Virus record (IMG/VR): IMGVR_UViG_3300025574_000085
Coordinates: 1-61,430 of that record
DNA: 61,430 nt
From: a virus
Lineage: Duplodnaviria; Caudoviricetes
Strand: one strand, 5' to 3'
Shown here: one piece after another, positions 3,590 through 57,386 of the stretch
Layout of the letters: the number at the start of each line of letters is the position of its first letter
Position numbering within the stretch: position 1 is the stretch's first letter
Position numbers and translations under genes: made by a program
Notes under the pieces: generated by a model
The model's database searches: none
What the model was told of the DNA's origin: nothing
Seen by the model: the letters and a program-made list of their open reading frames with translations, nothing else

Positions 3590-3771
3590 GAGGCCGCCCG
3601 GTAGGCGCGGTAGCTGGTGGTCTTCGCGGTGGATTCGCTGGTCAGGTGCCAGAAGCCGCCGTCGCACCGGTAGGCCCGCAGCTTGCCGCGGGTCCGCCGG
3701 AACCGTCGCGCCTCCTGCCGGGCGTGCTTGCGGGTCAGGAACCGGATCTTCCCGCACGCGCATTCAGCCAT
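3586..3771 (-). CDS. small Zn-binding phage protein
   Basis: CACGKIRF...RAYRCDGGFWHLTS motif. Confidence 0.6.
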   Translation of the reverse strand: MAECACGKIRFLTRKHARQEARRFRRTRGKLRAYRCDGGFWHLTSESTAKTTSYRAYRAAS

Positions 3772-4000
3772 GGCCGTCCCTCGGGTCCACGGGGGCGCCG
3801 GTGGCGTCAATCACCATCACCGGCGTGGTTGCTGGGTCTCGCCCGGACAGGATCAGCAGGCAGTCGAAGCACACGCCCTCATCCGGGCCAGGATTGCTGG
3901 CACCCACGCCGTAGTAGTCATCCAGCGGCGTGCACTGGTAGGTGCGCTTGCAGCGCTGGCAGGTCACTTGCTGCCATTGGATCGCCTCGTTCAGGTCCAT
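3764..4000 (-). CDS. small CxxC hypothetical protein
   Basis: CQRC...CFDC. Confidence 0.55.
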   Translation of the reverse strand: MDLNEAIQWQQVTCQRCKRTYQCTPLDDYYGVGASNPGPDEGVCFDCLLILSGRDPATTPVMVIDATGAPVDPRDGHG

Positions 4001-4348
4001 GGCGTGTCCTTGAGGCGTGCCTTGCGGCGCCGGTCGCGCTTCGTCTTGGCGTTGCGAGCCTCCGCCTCGCGGCGCTTGACGACCCGGAGGTCTCGCGCCG
4101 CGCCTTTCCGCTGCGGCCCGTGCCAGGCGCTCATGGGCGCCACGTCACGTACATGTTGCGCGGGGAATGCGTGCACTCCCAGCAGATCGACGCCCCCATA
4201 GCAATCGCCCACGGGACGCAACCAGCCATTCCCCAGAAAGAGCCGGTCGCCAGGAGGATTGGCCAGGACACGGCGTGGGCCAGGATGAGCGTTATCCACA
4301 TCCATTTGAGCCATGGATTTCTGAGGCCGCATCCAGTACGCATCCGCG

Positions 4349-4795
4349 TCACCACTCGCTGCCCATGGTCGCGCTCAGCAGCGCCGGCAGCGAGGCGGGG
4401 ACGGGACCTGGCTCCCATTTCGGCGGGCAGTCCCAGACCATCGTGGCGGCCTTGCGGACGAGGACGCGGGTGGGGTGCCTGCGGGGCAGCCGCCGCTTCT
4501 CCCGACGGGCGGTGTCGGCCTCGTCGAGCTGGCACAGGCGGCCACGGTCGCCTAGGTAGCCGACCTCGGCTTCGAGGAGGACGAGGGTCTTCTGCACCTG
4601 CCGCGTGCCCGGTGCGGCCTGTACCGGCGCCGGGAGCGCGGGTGGCGGTGAGGGGGTGGTGAGGTCGTGGCGGGGCCGCGGCGGGTTCTTCAGGAGGGTG
4701 ATCTCTGACCGGGTGAACGGGTGTGTGATGTCCCGCCGGACCGGGGCTTCGATGGCGAGGCGGTCGGCGTGCTGGCCGCGGTGGAAGAGGCTCAT
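4349..4795 (-). CDS. hypothetical protein
   Basis: MSLFHRGQH... start coupled to the upstream stop. Confidence 0.45.
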   Translation of the reverse strand: MSLFHRGQHADRLAIEAPVRRDITHPFTRSEITLLKNPPRPRHDLTTPSPPPALPAPVQAAPGTRQVQKTLVLLEAEVGYLGDRGRLCQLDEADTARREKRRLPRRHPTRVLVRKAATMVWDCPPKWEPGPVPASLPALLSATMGSEW

Positions 4796-5205
4796 GCGTG
4801 CCTCCCGGACCATGCCATCACCATGCGTGACCAGTCCGGATACCACTCGATCGCTGGCAGCGTGTGGAAAACGTTCTCGCGCGGGCCAACGATCACCAGG
4901 CGCTTGCCGAGCCCGAGCGCCAGCCCGAACTCGACGTGACGCCCGCCTTTCCCGCCGCCGCCCGCCGAGGTGAACGAGATCACCGTGTCGGCGGCTTCGA
5001 GGTCTTCGAGGTCGACGCGGGCGTACTTCGCGCACTCGTCCGGCTGGGCGTTCAGCTTCTCAGCGACGAACGACTCCAGCAGGTTCCCGCCGTGCTGATC
5101 GATCCAGCGGGAGGTGACCTCGTGGCCGAGCGCCTGGAGGACGTCGCGGACGCCCCGCATCTCGTCGTTCCGGCTGTAGCGGGCGGCTAGGTAGATCTTG
5201 CTCAT
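4792..5205 (-). CDS. nucleoside 2-deoxyribosyltransferase-like protein
   Basis: KIYLAA...DLEDLEAAD...GRHVEFGLALGLGK pattern of the NDT fold. Confidence 0.75.
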   Translation of the reverse strand: MSKIYLAARYSRNDEMRGVRDVLQALGHEVTSRWIDQHGGNLLESFVAEKLNAQPDECAKYARVDLEDLEAADTVISFTSAGGGGKGGRHVEFGLALGLGKRLVIVGPRENVFHTLPAIEWYPDWSRMVMAWSGRHA

Positions 5206-5492
5206 GCGGTTCTCCTGGTGTCGCGGATGGGTTCGTGGCTGCCGCATGGCCCGTGGTCCCAGACATGGATCAGGGCCAGGCAGCGACGGCAATGGCGGTA
5301 CTGGGGCAGGGATTTGGCGGCGAGGGGATGGCAGGCGAGGCACCGCTGCGGCCCGTCCGGGGTATCCATTTGCCGGGTGCCTTTCTGGCACTGGCCGCAC
5401 CATTCCGGGGCTGCGCCTTTGAATTTGCCGTTGTCGGCATCCAATTCAAATCGCCCTTTCGTCTCGCTTGTGGATAACCTCGCGCGTTCCAC
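5202..5492 (-). CDS. Zn-finger hypothetical protein
   Basis: WCGQC...RCLACHP...HCRRC. Confidence 0.5.
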   Translation of the reverse strand: MERARLSTSETKGRFELDADNGKFKGAAPEWCGQCQKGTRQMDTPDGPQRCLACHPLAAKSLPQYRHCRRCLALIHVWDHGPCGSHEPIRDTRRTA

Positions 5493-53980: not shown

Positions 53981-54462
53981 CAGAGCTTCCCGGCCTGTGC
54001 GACCAGCGCCCGGGCATTGGACAGCAGGACGTGGATCTGGTGCTGCAGGTGGGCCACGTGCGCCTTGTGCGCCGACAGCTTGTGCTTCGTGGTGGCGGCC
54101 TTCTTGTGCGCGGTGACGGCCTTTTTCACCGTGGTCGCCTTCTTCGCCGCCGTGGTCGCCTTCTTCGCCGCTGTGGTGTGCGCGGCCGTCTGCTTCTGCA
54201 CCGTGGCCAGCTGGGCCATCAGCGTGTGCGCCTGGGCGCGGAGCGCGGCGGCCTGCGCGAGCAGCTGCGCCTTGCGGGCTGCGTTCGGATTGGCCGCGCT
54301 CTTGCCGCCGCCGGTGCCGCCCGTGGCCGCGCTGCCGCCGCCGCCGCTGGAGGACGCGAACTGGCCGCCGGTGGGGCCGCCGGCCGCGGCGTGGGTCATG
54401 TTGAACCGCTGCGCGCCCGCCGCCCACTCACCAGCCCAGCGGGATGACCACGAGTCAGGCAT
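53980..54462 (-). CDS. basic histone-H1-like Lys/Ala/Thr-rich protein
   Basis: GGQF motif; AKKATT repeats. Confidence 0.6.
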   Translation of the reverse strand: MPDSWSSRWAGEWAAGAQRFNMTHAAAGGPTGGQFASSSGGGGSAATGGTGGGKSAANPNAARKAQLLAQAAALRAQAHTLMAQLATVQKQTAAHTTAAKKATTAAKKATTVKKAVTAHKKAATTKHKLSAHKAHVAHLQHQIHVLLSNARALVAQAGKL

Positions 54463-54495
54463 GGCTGCGTTTTCACCTCGCATTGATGCGCGCAC

Positions 54496-54504
54496 TGATA
54501 CGCT
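54496..54504 (+). promoter_or_regulatory. putative extended -10 promoter for the repeat/RAMP cassette
   Basis: TGATACGCT, 7 nt upstream of the first repeat unit. Confidence 0.4.
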
Positions 54505-54511
54505 GGCGTCT

Positions 54512-54588
54512 AACACAGCCCAGCGGAGCTGAGCCAAGCCCAGCCCGGCATGGCATAGCGGAGCTGAGCCAAGCAGAGCAGAGCACAG
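54512..54588 (+). repeat. RGC-NN pentamer array 1 (putative guide RNA)
   Basis: About 15 units with strict 5-nt period; ends AGCACAG. Confidence 0.85.
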
Positions 54589-54607
54589 TCCCCACGGAAG
54601 GAACCCG

Positions 54608-55216
54608 ATGCGAACCGAGACCAAGGCACGGCTGGAGCTGACCGGCGTGACGCCGCTCGTCGTCAACAACGCCCAGCTCGCCGACCCGACGAACGACTAT
54701 GCGATGAAGATCAGGACCATCACCGATAAGGGCATCAAGATGACTCCCGAGGAGCGCGAGCAGAAGGAAGCGCTCCAGTGGGCTGGAAGTCTCTACGTCG
54801 CCGACGACGGCCACCTGGTCTTCCCCGGCCGGAACTTCATCCGCGCGTTCCGCGACGTCGCGCCTGCGTTCAAGTCGGGCGCGGACATCGACCGCGGCGG
54901 CGTCATGATCGCCGAGACCGAGGTGGACATTCAGCACGACGGCCCGGCCGACCGCCGCGAGCTATGGGAGAACCCGCGTTACCGGTTCCGCACTGTCGTC
55001 AACGGCAATCCGACCAAGGGGCCGAAGGGCGGCAAGGTCGTATCGATGCGGCCGGTGTTCCCCGTCTGGGCGATGACGGTCAACGTCGTCGTGTTCGCGG
55101 ACATCCTCGGCTGGGACAAGTTCGAGCTGATCATCGACGCGGCCGGAGCGCAGGGCATCGGCAACGCCCGCAAGCTCGGCTACGGCCGGTTCACCGCCAA
55201 GGTCACCAAGCTCTAA
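54608..55216 (+). CDS. stand-alone Cas7/RAMP-like protein (VIPR-like)
   Basis: LTGVTPLVVNN, LY...P..NF..AF, RPVFPVW, and C-terminal Gly loop GIGNARKLGYGRF. Confidence 0.75.
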   Translation: MRTETKARLELTGVTPLVVNNAQLADPTNDYAMKIRTITDKGIKMTPEEREQKEALQWAGSLYVADDGHLVFPGRNFIRAFRDVAPAFKSGADIDRGGVMIAETEVDIQHDGPADRRELWENPRYRFRTVVNGNPTKGPKGGKVVSMRPVFPVWAMTVNVVVFADILGWDKFELIIDAAGAQGIGNARKLGYGRFTAKVTKL

Positions 55217-55222
55217 AGCCGT

Positions 55223-55359
55223 AGCCCAGCTAAGCCCAGCGCAGCCCAGCTAAGCGGAGCCGAGCGAAGCACAGCACAGCGAAGCAAAGCAGGGCGCAGC
55301 GGAGCGCAGCTTGGCGTAGCACAGTGCAGCGGAGCTAAGCCCAGCAGAGCACAGCACAG
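55223..55359 (+). repeat. RGC-NN pentamer array 2 (putative guide RNA or RNAs)
   Basis: 27 contiguous 5-nt units (24 AGC, 2 GGC, 1 AGT); ends AGCACAGCACAG. Confidence 0.9.
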
Positions 55360-55368
55360 AAAGGATTC

Positions 55369-55881
55369 ATGATGAGCCCCTTCCCCCCGAAAGGGTCACG
55401 GGCGCTGCGGATCATCGTCACGGAGATGGCAGCCGCCGCCGAGTACGGCGACGTGCTGACCTTCACCGAACTGGCGCAGGCCATCGAAGCCGAGGACGAC
55501 GACGCCGGCCACGCGCAAGTCAGGCAGGTTGTCAGCGCCGCCCGGCCCCTGCTCCTCGCCGACCACGGCCGCGCGCTGGTCGCCGTCCGCGGCAAGGGCT
55601 ACCGCGTCGCACTGCCCGGCGAGATGGCCGGGATAGCGCAGGATCACCGGCGGCGGGCCGACCGGCAGGTCGGCAAAGCCCTCGCCGTAATCGACCAGGC
55701 CGACATGACCGCCGCGACCGATGAGGAACGCCAACGGTTCCAGGCGGTCGGCGTCGTCATCCGCAACCTGCACTCACGCATGACATCGGCTGAACAGCGC
55801 CTCGCCGACCTTGAAGACGCCGTATTCGGCCAGAAGCCGCGTCAGAAGGTCATCCCCGGCGAGGTCGAGAAAGAGAACTGA
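55369..55881 (+). CDS. winged-helix plus coiled-coil accessory protein
   Basis: GDVLTFTELA...AVRGKGYRV wing motif; C-terminal heptads. Confidence 0.65.
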   Translation: MMSPFPPKGSRALRIIVTEMAAAAEYGDVLTFTELAQAIEAEDDDAGHAQVRQVVSAARPLLLADHGRALVAVRGKGYRVALPGEMAGIAQDHRRRADRQVGKALAVIDQADMTAATDEERQRFQAVGVVIRNLHSRMTSAEQRLADLEDAVFGQKPRQKVIPGEVEKEN

Positions 55882-55892
55882 GCGGAACTCTC

Positions 55893-55964
55893 AGCACAGC
55901 TCAGCCCAGCGGAGCGAAGCGGAGCGGAGCAAAGCCAGGCACAGCCGAGCCCAGCACAGCACAG
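55893..55964 (+). repeat. RGC-NN pentamer array 3 (putative guide matching the portal 3' end)
   Basis: 14 contiguous units; ends AGCACAGCACAG. Confidence 0.9.
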
Positions 55965-55967
55965 GTT

Positions 55968-57386
55968 TCACGGTCGGCCATTCAGCGCACGCCGCGCACT
56001 GGCTGGCCGCGGCGTCGGCCTCGTCCCGTTCCCGCCATCACCAGGACTGGTGCTGCCGACCGGCAGGCGGGGCATTGACGGCGGCAGGGGGTCGGCGGTC
56101 GCGCCCGGCTGGCCGGGCTGCGGCAGAAGATGCTGCACGTTCCCGGCCGGGAGCTGGGGCGGGACGTCAGCCACCTTCAGCTGGCCCATGTCACCCGCCT
56201 CGATCGCGTCGACCGCGCTCATCTTGTCGTACCCGGCCTGGCCGAGGGCCAGGAGAGCCTGCGCGCGGATCAGGGTCACCTGCGCCCGGACCTGCTCACC
56301 GTCCTGCAGCGCCGCGATGCTGGAGGTGTCCACCCACAGCCGGGACCCGGTGGGCAGATCCGGGACAAGAGGCTCCAGCGCCCCGCACAGCGACCGCCAC
56401 AACGGCCGCAGCGTCAGGTCACCGAAACGGCGGATCACTTCCTGATACGACTTCCCGGCGCCCTTGATGGACTCCAGGCCGATCAGCAGCGGCGGCACAC
56501 CGGCGGCGGCCAGAATGCGCTCGATGCCCAGCCCCATGACGCTCGTGAAATCGATCTGCTGCATGCTGTTGCCGACCGCTACCAGGTCCGCGCCCTGGTC
56601 CAGGATCAGGGTCTTGCCCGCGTTGGTCGTGCCGCCGTAGCGGGCGGACATCCGCTCCCGGATCGAATCCACCGTGCCCGGCTGAAGCTTCTGCGCGTAC
56701 TTGATGACCAGGTTCGGGGTTGCGTTGGCATCCAGGTAGCGGATCTTGTACTGGGCCATCCCGTCGTCGCCCTGAATGTCCCGCATCACCGGGGTCAGCC
56801 AGGACATGCCGCGGAAGTCGGCCTGCGGGTCCGGGATAGGCGCCCAGTGGGCCACCTCGGCGGCCTGGTACAGCTGGCCCTTGCCCCGGTCCAGGACGCT
56901 CTTCGGCGGTTCCACCCAGTAGCCGACCTTGCGGCGGTACTGGCCGCCGCCGGGCACCTGGACCAGCTCGGAGATGATCGTGGTCCAGTCGGGGCGCAGC
57001 CGGACCAGCACGTCCTCGCCAGGGGGTGCCCAGGTGTAGGAATTGCCGGCCACGCTGGCGTCCTGCTCACAGCGGGCGATCAGCTCACCGGAGGTCGAGT
57101 CCGGGCCCCACGGATGCTCCAGTACCGCCAGGGACTGGTTGCCGTACAGGTGCTTGTCATCCTTGGCCTGGAACTGGAACTGCGCTTCGGACAGCAGCAT
57201 CATCCGGACGAGGATCGCGGAGAACACCGGGGAATCGGATGCGTTGGCCTGCTGCGCCCACCCGGAAATCTGCGGCAGGATCGACTCACGGTCCGGGCTG
57301 CCGTACGTGGTCGTCAGGACCGCCGCGCCGCTCGCCTGGCCCTCAAAGAAGCCGCTCCGCGAGAGCAGGCGGTCAAGGAGCCTCAC
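55968..57386 (-). CDS. portal protein (HK97-like)
   Basis: GNSY...LRPDW...GMSWL...NATP...NAGKTLILDQG...GVPP. Confidence 0.92.
   Translation of the reverse strand: MRLLDRLLSRSGFFEGQASGAAVLTTTYGSPDRESILPQISGWAQQANASDSPVFSAILVRMMLLSEAQFQFQAKDDKHLYGNQSLAVLEHPWGPDSTSGELIARCEQDASVAGNSYTWAPPGEDVLVRLRPDWTTIISELVQVPGGGQYRRKVGYWVEPPKSVLDRGKGQLYQAAEVAHWAPIPDPQADFRGMSWLTPVMRDIQGDDGMAQYKIRYLDANATPNLVIKYAQKLQPGTVDSIRERMSARYGGTTNAGKTLILDQGADLVAVGNSMQQIDFTSVMGLGIERILAAAGVPPLLIGLESIKGAGKSYQEVIRRFGDLTLRPLWRSLCGALEPLVPDLPTGSRLWVDTSSIAALQDGEQVRAQVTLIRAQALLALGQAGYDKMSAVDAIEAGDMGQLKVADVPPQLPAGNVQHLLPQPGQPGATADPLPPSMPRLPVGSTSPGDGGNGTRPTPRPASARRALNGRP

What the first reader, a model, noticed from the sequence alone, without database searches (positions are those of the whole stretch)
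55893..56051. Pentamer array 3 spells a gapped copy of the adjacent portal gene, and the phage's own copy mismatches at Ser/Arg codon swaps
Seen: the variable dinucleotides of array 3 are AC TC CC GG GA GG GG AA CA AC CG CC AC (AC). Read as codon positions 1-2 they give T-S-P-G-D/E-G-G-N/K-H/Q-T-R-P-T. The portal C-terminus at 56051-56013 (minus strand) is ACC AGT CCT GGT GAT GGC GGG AAC GGG ACG AGG CCG ACG = TSPGDGGNGTRPT, so 10 of 13 dinucleotides match at a 3-nt target step. Two of the three mismatches are synonymous: Ser is AGT instead of TCN and Arg is AGG instead of CGN, both rare codons in this GC-rich genome. Inference: the array RNA is a guide that reads two bases and skips one, so wobble changes cannot escape it. 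It would pair with the portal template DNA strand and target portal alleles of related, competing phages (or drive homing of the cassette). The resident allele appears to avoid self-targeting through six-codon amino-acid family swaps.
Basis: partly seen in the sequence, partly recalled or inferred. Interest (0 to 1): 0.97.

Follow-up and report, generated by a model that had tools for sequence, protein, structure and literature searches.

The report
Phage VIPR guide against rival portals
This repeat array is a guide RNA of the recently described phage VIPR system, which reads DNA two bases at a time and skips the third; it matches the portal gene of closely related phages perfectly, while the phage's own copy differs at a few mostly synonymous codons.

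Summary
Array 3 has 15 NNAGC units at 55891-55965. Its dinucleotides match codon positions 1-2 of the adjacent portal C-terminus at 10 of 13 units, in frame. It is the best step-3 hit in the window (2 of 200 permutations reach it).

The kind is already in print. The array belongs to a 1.5-kb VIPR cassette of Vipr, a wHTH accessory gene and three arrays. A profile of this protein's family hits the solved SUSP1 Vipr at E=3.6e-21.

Two results here are not in those main texts.
- **Cognate target.** Portal genes of cassette-free relatives match the guide at 13 of 13 units (L052). Relatives with the same peptide as the window use TCC/TCG/CGG where the resident has AGC/AGT/AGG.
- **Recurrence.** At least two other cassettes of this clade (L013, L040) also carry a guide against a flanking gene. 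Each has a perfect match in a relative and Ser/Arg/Leu family swaps in the resident.

Selection for self-avoidance is plausible but not shown. The resident allele is no worse a match than 7 of 17 cassette-free relatives, and family swaps are common across the gene.

The parts
54466..55989 (+). VIPR cassette as a discrete insertion between the portal 3' end and the protease/scaffold gene
   Evidence: blastn of W against the cassette-free relative L065: homology runs to W 55990 and resumes at W 54465. The 1525 bp in W stand where L065 has 24 bp.
54515..54589 (+). Array 1: 15 NNAGC units upstream of vipr
   Evidence: No natural target found.
54608..55216 (+). vipr: 202-aa RAMP protein with the G-loop GIGNARKLGYGRF
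   Evidence: Family profile hits 'SUSP1 Vipr protein' (36pp_D) at E=3.6e-21 over positions 11-203. AlphaFold2 model pLDDT 88.8. Top Foldseek hits are Csm3/Cas7-type RAMPs, E 1.4e-7, TM 0.55. G183, G185, G191, G193 and F195 are invariant in 21 homologues. phrog_4652.
55221..55360 (+). Array 2: 28 units. Units 13-23 (55281-55335) form an 11-unit guide.
   Evidence: Units 13-23 match a 716-aa ORF of viral contig L109 at 11 of 11 units, in frame.
55369..55881 (+). vap-like accessory gene: 170 aa, winged-helix DNA-binding-like
   Evidence: Pfam Trans_reg_C E=2.4e-4, below the curated cut-off. phrog_5926. Homologues sit next to vipr in 34 loci that hold a vipr homologue (tblastn hits among L001-L035, 50-86% identity).
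55891..55965 (+). Array 3: a 15-unit vrRNA guide; units 1-13 or 1-14 specify the portal site
   Evidence: The guide is conserved in L001 and L012, while arrays 1 and 2 differ entirely between these loci.
56010..56054 (-). Resident, imperfect copy of the guide's target, in portal codons 445-459 (STSPGDGGNGTRPTP)
   Evidence: 10 of 13 units (units 2-14) and 22 of 30 bases (all 15 units) match. [quoted passage not shown]
55968..57386 (-). Portal gene
   Evidence: Pfam Phage_portal 1e-28, phrog_12.

Best explanation
Array 3 encodes a vrRNA of a VIPR (Viral Interference Programmable Repeat) system. The system sits on a 1.5-kb cassette inserted between the portal and protease genes of a high-GC provirus, probably of an Actinomycetota host.

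**How it works (inferred from the published system).** Vipr protomers, encoded at 54608-55216, would bind one NNAGC unit each. They hide the AGC and present the NN. The filament then pairs with double-stranded DNA in a 2-paired, 1-skipped register, so the skipped base falls on the codon wobble position.

**What it is aimed at.** The cognate target of this guide is the conserved C-terminal motif S-T-S-P-G-D-G-G-N-(H/Q)-T-R-P of the portal gene of closely related phages. Binding there most likely blocks late-operon transcription of a superinfecting or co-resident relative, which is inter-phage exclusion. The phage's own portal lies 25-65 bp from the cassette boundary. It is an imperfect copy of the site, with two Ser swaps, one Arg swap and one Gly where the guide reads CA, and this may spare it.

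**Shown here.**
- Homology to Vipr, and the array architecture.
- The step-3, wobble-aligned match.
- Perfect targets in cassette-free relatives.
- Imperfect resident alleles.
- The same layout in other cassettes.

**Inferred.**
- That the arrays are transcribed and the RNP forms.
- That the outcome is repression.
- That the resident's mismatches are enough to protect it, and were selected.
For: **Membership.**
- The family profile hits SUSP1 Vipr at E=3.6e-21. The fold is RAMP and the G-loop is invariant.
- All 35 related loci fetched with the Vipr alignment carry NNAG(C/T) arrays on the vipr strand.
- Distant homologues in the isolated phages LittleE and Medea1 sit beside canonical YNNGG arrays.

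**Rule.** Only target step 3 gives a hit, with NN on codon positions 1-2.

**Targets.**
- The 9-unit core pattern has 28 exact matches in viral contigs. Seven lie at the homologous site of portal homologues (57-65% identity); the other 21 are one unrelated family that matches only 21 of 30 bases.
- L052 matches units 1-13 perfectly, 26 of 26 bases. L052, L056, L062 and L064 have the protease gene directly after the portal and no arrays.
- In an independent portal-seeded set of 17 cassette-free alleles, the guide matches 12 of 13 units in 5, 11 in 5, 10 in 3 and 9 in 4.
- Across 78 distinct loci plus the window (588 kb), 21 loci hold at least 20 of 22 matching bases. Twenty shuffled guides gave none.
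- L065 and L115 encode the window's exact peptide with TCC/TCG/CGG.

**Conservation.** The guide is kept in L001 (Vipr 92% identical) and L012 (79%), while arrays 1 and 2 differ entirely.

**Replicates.**
- The L013 array 3 guide matches the 90%-identical cassette-free L083 at 16 of 16 units, and its core pattern matches 12 of 12 fetched homologues. Its own neighbouring gene differs at AGG (Arg), AGT (Ser) and one non-synonymous codon.
- The L040 guide matches L111 at 10 of 10 units and its own portal at 19 of 20 bases. The only difference is Leu TTN against CTG.

**Co-occurrence.** Contigs that skip the cassette occur in the same peat metagenome runs.
Against: - No expression data: no RNA run was listed, and no promoter-like site was found.
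- The repeat trinucleotide is AGY, not the published GGY, and no room for a structured 3' tail is visible. Function of this variant is therefore inferred by homology only.
- The resident allele is not an outlier. 7 of 17 cassette-free alleles match the W guide no better than W's own. For L001's guide the figure is 11 of 17, and for L012's it is 6 of 17.
- Differences at codon positions 1-2 in the footprint are not significantly enriched over the rest of the gene: W against L065 5/30 vs 99/914, p=0.23; L013 against L083 5/32 vs 41/576, p=0.085.
- Family swaps are common gene-wide: 12 of 13 conserved Ser columns and 11 of 27 Arg columns are mixed. In L013 against L083 they are 2/3 in the site and 12/53 elsewhere, p=0.15.
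- Self matches of 81-95% would count as target hits under the preprint's 80% criterion, so the resident may in fact be bound.
- Arrays 1 and 2 (units 1-12) have no identified target.
Confidence: 0.8

Rival explanations
1. Self-regulation. The guide is meant for the phage's own portal and late operon and tolerates three mismatched units. It would act as a lysogeny lock on head genes, or shield the cassette from antisense late transcription.
For: - Self matches are high: W 21/26 bases, L001 22/26, L013 13 of 16 units, L040 19/20, L024 17 of 18 bases. All are at or above the 80% NN criterion used for natural targets in 10.64898/2026.04.26.720920 (Methods section read).
- The target always lies next to the cassette.
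- 10 of 55 arrays tested have a self-locus hit that at most 2 of 100 shuffles reach.
Against: - In all three best-resolved cases a perfect match exists in a relative, not in self.
- A self-directed guide should co-evolve to a perfect match. Instead, W's guide reads CG where its own allele has AGG, and L001's and L012's guides read AG where their alleles have CGG.
- L040 carries a cassette without this guide and keeps the fully matching TCG..CAG..CGC allele.
Confidence: 0.1
2. Selfish linkage or homing-like element. The guide is directed at the cassette-free allele of the flanking gene, and the cassette travels with a linked mismatched ('immune') allele. Binding next to the empty insertion site penalises cassette-free genomes or stimulates recombination that copies the cassette in.
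For: - The target lies 25-65 bp from the insertion boundary in W. In other cassettes it lies about 45-590 bp from the array.
- W and L001 share AGC ACN AGT CCT GGT GAT, wobble bases included, although their portals are only about 64% identical overall. W-L001 nucleotide identity rises to 82% in the window at W codon 422.
- Flank-directed guides recur in three different gene contexts: portal, terminase in L024, and an unnamed gene in L013.
- Cassette-free relatives occur in the same metagenome runs.
Against: - No nuclease domain was found in vipr or vap (Pfam, NCBIfam, PADLOC).
- The published type with DNA-binding accessory genes only represses.
- No recombination junctions or gene-conversion tracts were tested formally.
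- Adjacency could equally reflect how guides arise.
Confidence: 0.08
3. Chance resemblance, or a non-guide repeat such as a binding site for an oligomeric RNA-binding protein (TRAP-like), with no sequence relation to the portal.
For: - Within the window alone the match is only moderately significant: 2 of 200 permutations, one of three arrays.
- The site is a Gly/Pro/Ser-rich tail.
Against: - Perfect 13-unit and 16-unit matches at homologous sites in relatives, against zero hits for shuffled guides.
- The guide is conserved across three diverged cassettes.
- The protein is homologous to a solved Vipr.
Confidence: 0.02

Closest known systems
VIPR systems (Vipr + vrRNA + vap). Sources: bioRxiv 10.64898/2026.04.26.720920 (Results, Discussion and two Methods sections read); 10.64898/2026.04.26.720927 (passages read); 10.64898/2026.10.15.759431 (passages read)
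   Same: - A small RAMP protein homologous to SUSP1 Vipr.
- Tandem pentamers of a fixed trinucleotide plus a variable NN, in 15-unit arrays on the vipr strand.
- A two-gene cassette with a DNA-binding-like accessory gene, carried by a phage.
- The 1-nt skip register aligned to wobble positions, with targets in other phages on either strand.
   Different: - The fixed trinucleotide is AG(C/T), with occasional GGC, rather than GGY. 'AGC' and 'AGY' do not occur in the main texts of 720920 or of 10.64898/2026.10.21.760802 (word searches). Figures and supplements were not seen.
- No space for a structured 3' tail: the arrays abut ribosome-binding sites or the portal stop codon.
- The guides are aimed at the gene flanking the cassette, and self matches are 81-95%. 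The first preprint reports no self hit at 80% or more in its sets.
- Ser/Arg/Leu family swaps appear as synonymous mismatches. The October 2026 preprint states that escape requires amino-acid-changing mutations; the words sixfold, six-fold, arginine and leucine are absent from it.
Class 1 CRISPR-Cas backbone proteins (Cas7/Csm3)
   Same: RAMP fold with a G-rich loop. One protomer binds per periodic RNA segment, and a thumb interrupts pairing (fold; the mechanism is taken from the cited preprints).
   Different: - No CRISPR repeats or spacers and no other cas genes in the window's cassette.
- The period is 5 nt of RNA to 3 nt of DNA rather than 6 to 6.
- No adaptation module.
Free-standing homing endonuclease genes of T-even phages (recalled from general knowledge; no call)
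   Same: A small cassette between conserved phage genes acts on a site in the neighbouring gene of cassette-free relatives. The carrier's own site differs by a few substitutions.
   Different: No nuclease domain was detected. Recognition is RNA-guided. Cassette spread has not been shown.

Membership tests
VIPR | Vipr protein: a small RAMP homologous to published Vipr | tested here: met
   hmmsearch of alignment A1 against PDB sequences: 'SUSP1 Vipr protein' 36pp_D, E=3.6e-21, nearly full length. Foldseek top hits are Csm3/Cas7 RAMPs. The G-loop is invariant.
VIPR | vrRNA arrays: 9-16 tandem pentamers of a conserved trinucleotide (GGY) plus a hypervariable NN, beside vipr | tested here: met
   Arrays of 15, 28 and 15 units on the vipr strand, and all 35 related loci likewise. 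The trinucleotide is AGY with some GGC, so the YNNGG consensus is met only as the 'related consensus' YNNNG named in the preprint's Methods.
VIPR | Targets obey the 1-nt skip rule | tested here: met
   Only step 3 gives hits. Perfect 13-, 16-, 11- and 10-unit natural matches were found. Shuffled guides gave 0 hits.
VIPR | Skipped base aligned to the codon wobble position | tested here: met
   NN falls on codon positions 1-2 of the portal frame. For an antisense-strand target in L071 the skipped bases fall on position 3 of the 513-aa frame.
VIPR | vap accessory gene next to vipr | tested here: inconclusive
   A 170-aa wHTH-like ORF follows vipr in the window and in 34 vipr-holding related loci. 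Homology to the published vap1-6 could not be tested because no sequences are held.
VIPR | Invariable structured 3' tail after the repeat tract | tested here: inconclusive
   By reading only: the arrays end 10-20 nt before the next start codon or 3 nt before the portal stop. Recurrent endings are ACAGC ACAG(N) or NNAGT. No fold test was run.
VIPR | vrRNA expressed and bound by Vipr; DNA binding and repression | not testable with these tools
   Needs sRNA-seq, pull-down and reporter assays.
CRISPR-Cas | Repeat-spacer array with cas operon | tested here: not met
   Tandem-repeat scan and ORF/Pfam survey of the cassette show only pentamer arrays, vipr and vap. PADLOC gave no hit.
Homing endonuclease cassette | Encodes a site-specific nuclease | tested here: not met
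   No nuclease family was found in either ORF by Pfam, NCBIfam or PADLOC.

The most novel reading that the evidence does not exclude
In this AGY-type VIPR clade, cassettes behave as linked poison-antidote (or homing-like) elements. Each carries a guide against the cassette-free allele of the gene it is inserted beside, and it travels with a flanking allele that mismatches the guide.

The wobble-skipping code leaves one synonymous escape route open: family swaps at the six-fold degenerate Ser, Arg and Leu codons. Resident alleles, and probably targeted relatives, use this route. That would produce a codon-family arms race, for example guide CG against allele AGG in W, and guide AG against allele CGG in L001 and L012.
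Probability: 0.3. Interest if true: 0.82.

Novelty: new variant of a known kind. Interest (0 to 1): 0.66.

Why it matters
VIPR was described only in 2026. Its authors argue that skipping the wobble base makes guides proof against synonymous escape.

This locus gives natural, replicated cases in which the only or main differences between a guide and the carrier's own gene are synonymous Ser/Arg/Leu family swaps. The guide is aimed at the gene next to the cassette in sister phages.

If these swaps protect the carrier, they define both the escape route from VIPR and a self/non-self rule for it. They would also show VIPR cassettes acting on their own lineage, not only on satellites or unrelated prophages.

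The data also extend VIPR to an AGY-repeat clade in soil and peat actinobacterial-type phages, and supply ready-made target/non-target pairs for measuring mismatch tolerance.

Tried and rejected
**Readings dropped.**
- I first read the arrays as a TRAP-like binding site for an oligomeric RNA-binding protein. I dropped this once the protein proved to be a Vipr homologue.

**Targets for arrays 1 and 2.**
- No step-3 hit above shuffles in the window, in 588 kb of loci, or in five relatives' whole records, 252 kb.
- Exact 9-unit patterns in viral contigs gave 0 hits for array 1 units 2-10 and 0 hits for array 2 units 1-9.
- Only array 2 units 13-21 gave a hit.

**Searches that returned nothing useful.**
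- The Vipr alignment against genome contigs found no relative.
- Rfam gave only a sub-threshold snoRNA match.
- The promoter/terminator scan found 0 promoter-like sites and 1 terminator-like site, about the number shuffles give.
- PADLOC and NCBIfam gave no family for vipr or vap.
- PHROGs gave no family for the gene adjacent to the L013 cassette or for the L109 ORF.

**Expression.** No RNA holder was listed among 10 runs. The runs laid were DNA contigs only, so nothing can be said about expression.

**Enrichment tests that did not reach significance.**
- Differences at codon positions 1-2 in the footprint against the rest of the gene: p=0.23 to 0.38 for W against L065 and L069, and 0.067 to 0.116 for W against L072, L078 and L066.
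- L013 against L083: p=0.085 for positions 1-2 and p=0.15 for family swaps.

**Ascertainment bias.**
- L040, L052, L056-L058, L062 and L064 were found by a pattern that requires TC..CA. I kept them out of the unbiased counts.
- L075 (portal cut off) was dropped from the site table.
- L070's site was missed by my regex but is included in the alignment-based counts.
- The 12 L013-type targets are likewise pattern-selected.

**Not available.** Supplementary files of the four preprints were closed and I did not request them. Their data S3/S4, fig.
Full report
**1. The observation**

Positions 55891-55965 hold 15 head-to-tail pentamers of the form NN+AGC. One unit is GGC and the last is AGG. Their variable dinucleotides are TC AC TC CC GG GA GG GG AA CA AC CG CC AC AC. 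Two more such arrays lie at 54515-54589 (15 units) and 55221-55360 (28 units). All three are on the + strand, and there are none elsewhere in the window on either strand.

The minus-strand ORF 55968-57386 is a portal gene (Pfam Phage_portal 1e-28). Units 2-14 match codon positions 1-2 at 10 of 13 units (21 of 26 bases). The mismatches are TC/AGT (Ser), CA/GGG and CG/AGG (Arg). Unit 1 (TC) faces AGC, a further Ser swap.

In a scan of both strands of the whole window, the best step-3 alignment of array 3 is this site. Only 2 of 200 permuted arrays reach its score. Steps 2, 4 and 6 give nothing, and arrays 1 and 2 have no above-chance hit. Taken alone the match is moderately significant. The comparative data below settle it.

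**2. What surrounds it**

Array 1, a 202-aa ORF (54608-55216), array 2, a 170-aa ORF (55369-55881) and array 3 form one + strand cassette. It lies between the minus-strand portal and protease/capsid genes.

Against the closest cassette-free relative (L065), homology stops at W 55990 and resumes at W 54465. The 1525 bp in W replace 24 bp in L065. The cassette is therefore a discrete insertion, and the portal site lies 25-65 bp from its edge.

The record is an IMG/VR provirus of 61,430 bases. The only genome-collection relative of the portal is a prophage in an uncultured Actinomycetota MAG.

**3. It is a VIPR system**

A full-text search turned up bioRxiv 10.64898/2026.04.26.720920. I read its Results, Discussion and two Methods sections. 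It describes phage-borne systems with these features:
- a roughly 20-kDa RAMP protein (Vipr);
- an accessory gene (vap);
- vrRNAs of 9-16 pentamers in which GGY alternates with variable NN.

The NN pair with DNA while every third target base is skipped, and the skipped base usually falls on the wobble position. Natural targets are competing phages and satellites.

Membership is supported as follows:
- A profile of 21 homologues of the 54608 protein hits the solved 'SUSP1 Vipr protein' at E=3.6e-21 over nearly its full length.
- Its AlphaFold2 model (pLDDT 88.8) matches Csm3/Cas7-type RAMPs (E 1.4e-7, TM 0.55).
- The C-terminal G-loop is invariant.
- All 35 loci fetched with the protein alignment carry NNAG(C/T) arrays on the same strand, and 34 of them a homologue of the 170-aa ORF.
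- Distant homologues (26-27% identity) in Mycobacterium phage LittleE and Pseudomonas phage Medea1 sit beside canonical YNNGG arrays. In Gordonia phage Trine (31%) such a run lies under the annotated gene 40.

The differences from the published type are the AGY trinucleotide and the lack of room for a structured 3' tail.

**4. The cognate target exists in relatives**

The 9-unit core of the guide, written with N at every third place, has 28 exact matches in viral contigs.
- Twenty-one belong to one unrelated protein family of lower G+C and match only 21 of 30 bases overall.
- Seven lie at the homologous C-terminal site of portal homologues (57-65% identity).

In L052, units 1-13 match perfectly (26 of 26 bases), including TCC and TCG for the two Ser, CAC at the variable codon and CGC for Arg. 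L052, L056, L062 and L064 have the protease gene directly after the portal and no arrays, so they are cassette-free.

Because that set was selected by the pattern, I also fetched portal homologues by protein alone: 18 loci, all cassette-free. Of the 17 with a readable site, the guide matches 12 of 13 units in 5, 11 in 5, 10 in 3 and 9 in 4.

L065 and the MAG prophage L115 encode the window's exact peptide STSPGDGGNGTRPTP with TCC/TCG/CGG where the window has AGC/AGT/AGG.

Over 588 kb of fetched DNA, 21 loci hold at least 20 of 22 matching bases. Twenty shuffled guides gave none.

The guide itself is conserved in the cassettes of L001 (Vipr 92% identical) and L012 (79%), whose arrays 1 and 2 are entirely different from the window's. 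So the guide is under constraint, and its target is the portal C-terminal motif of this phage lineage.

**5. Does the resident allele avoid the guide?**

For:
- None of the three guide-bearing genomes matches its own guide at more than 10 of 13 units (W 10, L001 10, L012 7).
- At the Arg codon all three are discordant, in both directions: W has guide CG and allele AGG; L001 and L012 have guide AG and allele CGG.
- Against L065, all 3 six-fold codons in the footprint are family-swapped, compared with 3 of 91 elsewhere (Fisher p=1.5e-4). The result is similar against 11 other relatives, all 3/3, p=0.0009-0.005.
- L040 carries a cassette without this guide and keeps the fully matching allele.

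Against:
- The resident is not an outlier. 7 of 17 cassette-free alleles match W's guide no better than W's own; the figures are 11 of 17 for L001 and 6 of 17 for L012.
- AGY at Ser447 occurs in 7 of 16 cassette-free alleles read.
- Family mixing is common across the gene: 12 of 13 conserved Ser columns, 11 of 27 Arg and 10 of 34 Leu.
- The cassette-free L071 shares AGC/AGC/AGG.
- Overall divergence at positions 1-2 in the footprint is not significantly above the gene average.
- W and L001 share AGC ACN AGT CCT GGT GAT, wobble bases included. W-L001 identity rises to 82% in the window at W codon 422 and 76% at codon 438, against 60-82% (mostly 60-74%) in the windows before. The Ser swaps are therefore probably one inherited allele linked to the cassette, not repeated events.

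Conclusion: the mismatches are real, and they are mostly synonymous family swaps. Selection for self-avoidance is plausible but not demonstrated. Whether three mismatched units prevent binding is unknown.

**6. The layout recurs in other cassettes**

- **L013** (Vipr 74% identical, different neighbouring gene). Array 3 matches the 3' part of its own adjacent minus-strand gene at 13 of 16 units. The differences are CG/AGG (Arg), TC/AGT (Ser) and CA/ACG. The 11-unit pattern (22 specified bases) has 12 exact matches in viral contigs. All 12 are homologues of that gene (49-90% identity) without arrays, and the 90%-identical L083 matches all 16 units.
- **L040.** The last 10 units of array 3 match its own portal, about 100 codons from the end, at 19 of 20 bases. 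The single difference is Leu TT against CTG. The portal homologue L111 has TTG and matches 10 of 10.
- **L001.** Array 1 matches a head-module gene of L071 at 10 of 10 units on the antisense strand, with the skipped bases on codon position 3, and its own genome at 18 of 20.
- **L024.** Array 3 matches its own terminase gene about 590 bp away at 17 of 18 bases.

Overall, 10 of 55 arrays tested have a self-locus hit that at most 2 of 100 shuffles reach. L027 and L028 carry the same array.

In an all-against-all scan, 64 arrays gave 38 hits at 19 of 20 or better. The same arrays shuffled gave none.

Self matches of 81-95% contrast with the preprint's statement that no self hit reached 80% in its sets.

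**7. The window's other guides**

Array 1 and units 1-12 of array 2 have no target in the window, the fetched loci, five whole relatives or the viral collection.

Units 13-23 of array 2 match a 716-aa ORF of an unrelated viral contig (L109) at 11 of 11 units, in frame. The guide starts right after two ACAGC units, which suggests these mark a vrRNA boundary.

**8. Co-occurrence**

Contigs of four peat metagenome runs were laid on the cassette. In the run that may be the window's source, a 343-nt contig joins 54458 to 56056 with 235 other letters in place of 1597. Another run has a 4785-nt contig that likewise skips from 54403 to 56056. These are cassette-free relatives in the same habitat. They are short contigs at 85% likeness, so this is weak but consistent evidence.

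**9. Mechanism and rivals**

The best reading (0.8) is a VIPR guide aimed at the portal gene of sister phages. By analogy with the published repression data, it would block their late operon, and the carrier's own imperfect site would possibly be spared.

The rivals are:
- self-regulation of the carrier's late operon (0.1);
- a linked poison-antidote or homing-like role for the cassette (0.08);
- chance or a non-guide repeat (0.02).

**10. Novelty**

The kind of system and its gapped code are in print in four 2026 preprints, which I saw as named sections or passages. The following do not appear in their main texts, by word search:
- an AGY repeat unit;
- guides directed at the gene flanking the cassette;
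- near-perfect self matches;
- Ser/Arg/Leu family swaps as the synonymous route left open by a wobble-skipping code.

The October preprint states that escape requires amino-acid-changing mutations. Supplements could not be seen and may bear on these points.

Noticed in passing
window 55281-55335 (array 2 units 13-23); L109 6418-8568 (-): An 11-unit guide inside array 2 matches a 716-aa ORF of an unrelated viral contig at 11 of 11 units, in frame. The ORF has no PHROG family. The guide begins right after two ACAGC units.
   Followed up: partly
window 54585-54589, 55271-55280, 55351-55360, 55956-55965; arrays in L001-L035: Arrays of this clade typically end in ACAGC ACAG(N), or in a unit with T instead of C (NNAGT). 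This may be a vrRNA boundary or processing mark that replaces the structured tail of published vrRNAs.
   Followed up: no
L013 5129-6815 (+), 5898-6338: Beyond the gene targeted by L013's array 3 lie four further arrays of NNGGC type and a second vap-like ORF (30% identity). One phage gene is therefore flanked by two VIPR-like cassettes with different repeat trinucleotides.
   Followed up: no
L114 (Mycobacterium phage LittleE, NC_042322.1) 2172-2363 and 3654-3945; L113 (Gordonia phage Trine) 3125-3186; L112 (Pseudomonas phage Medea1) 3559-3625: Isolated phages carry distant homologues of this Vipr beside canonical YNNGG arrays. In LittleE and Trine some arrays lie under CDSs annotated as 'hypothetical protein' (gp35, gp40), which are probably mis-annotations.
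   Followed up: partly
window 54403-56056 (read laying, runs X1-X3): Contigs from peat metagenomes join the protease side to the portal side without the cassette. The loose end before 56056 in X2 reads, on the portal strand, as a TCG ACG TCG ... allele. Cassette-free relatives therefore co-occur with the carrier.
   Followed up: partly
L082 3277-3846 (-), next to portal 4001-5401: A complete 52.5-kb relative has a 25%-identical Vipr-like ORF immediately upstream of its portal, with degenerate NNNGG runs nearby. The portal neighbourhood may be a recurrent site for such cassettes.
   Followed up: no
L014 ~429; L027 ~5672; L028 ~28; L009 ~7891: Some arrays have 17-18 of 20 self matches in apparently non-coding DNA about 200 bp outside the cassette. 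The matched stretches contain stop codons in frame. They could be regulatory or VIPR-on-VIPR targets.
   Followed up: no
L115 4001-5412: The Actinomycetota MAG prophage portal (83% identity) has a frameshift near codon 40. This is either an assembly error or a decaying prophage.
   Followed up: no
window 54515-54589: Array 1 contains an internal repeat of three units: GG TG CA at units 3-5 and again at units 10-12.
   Followed up: no
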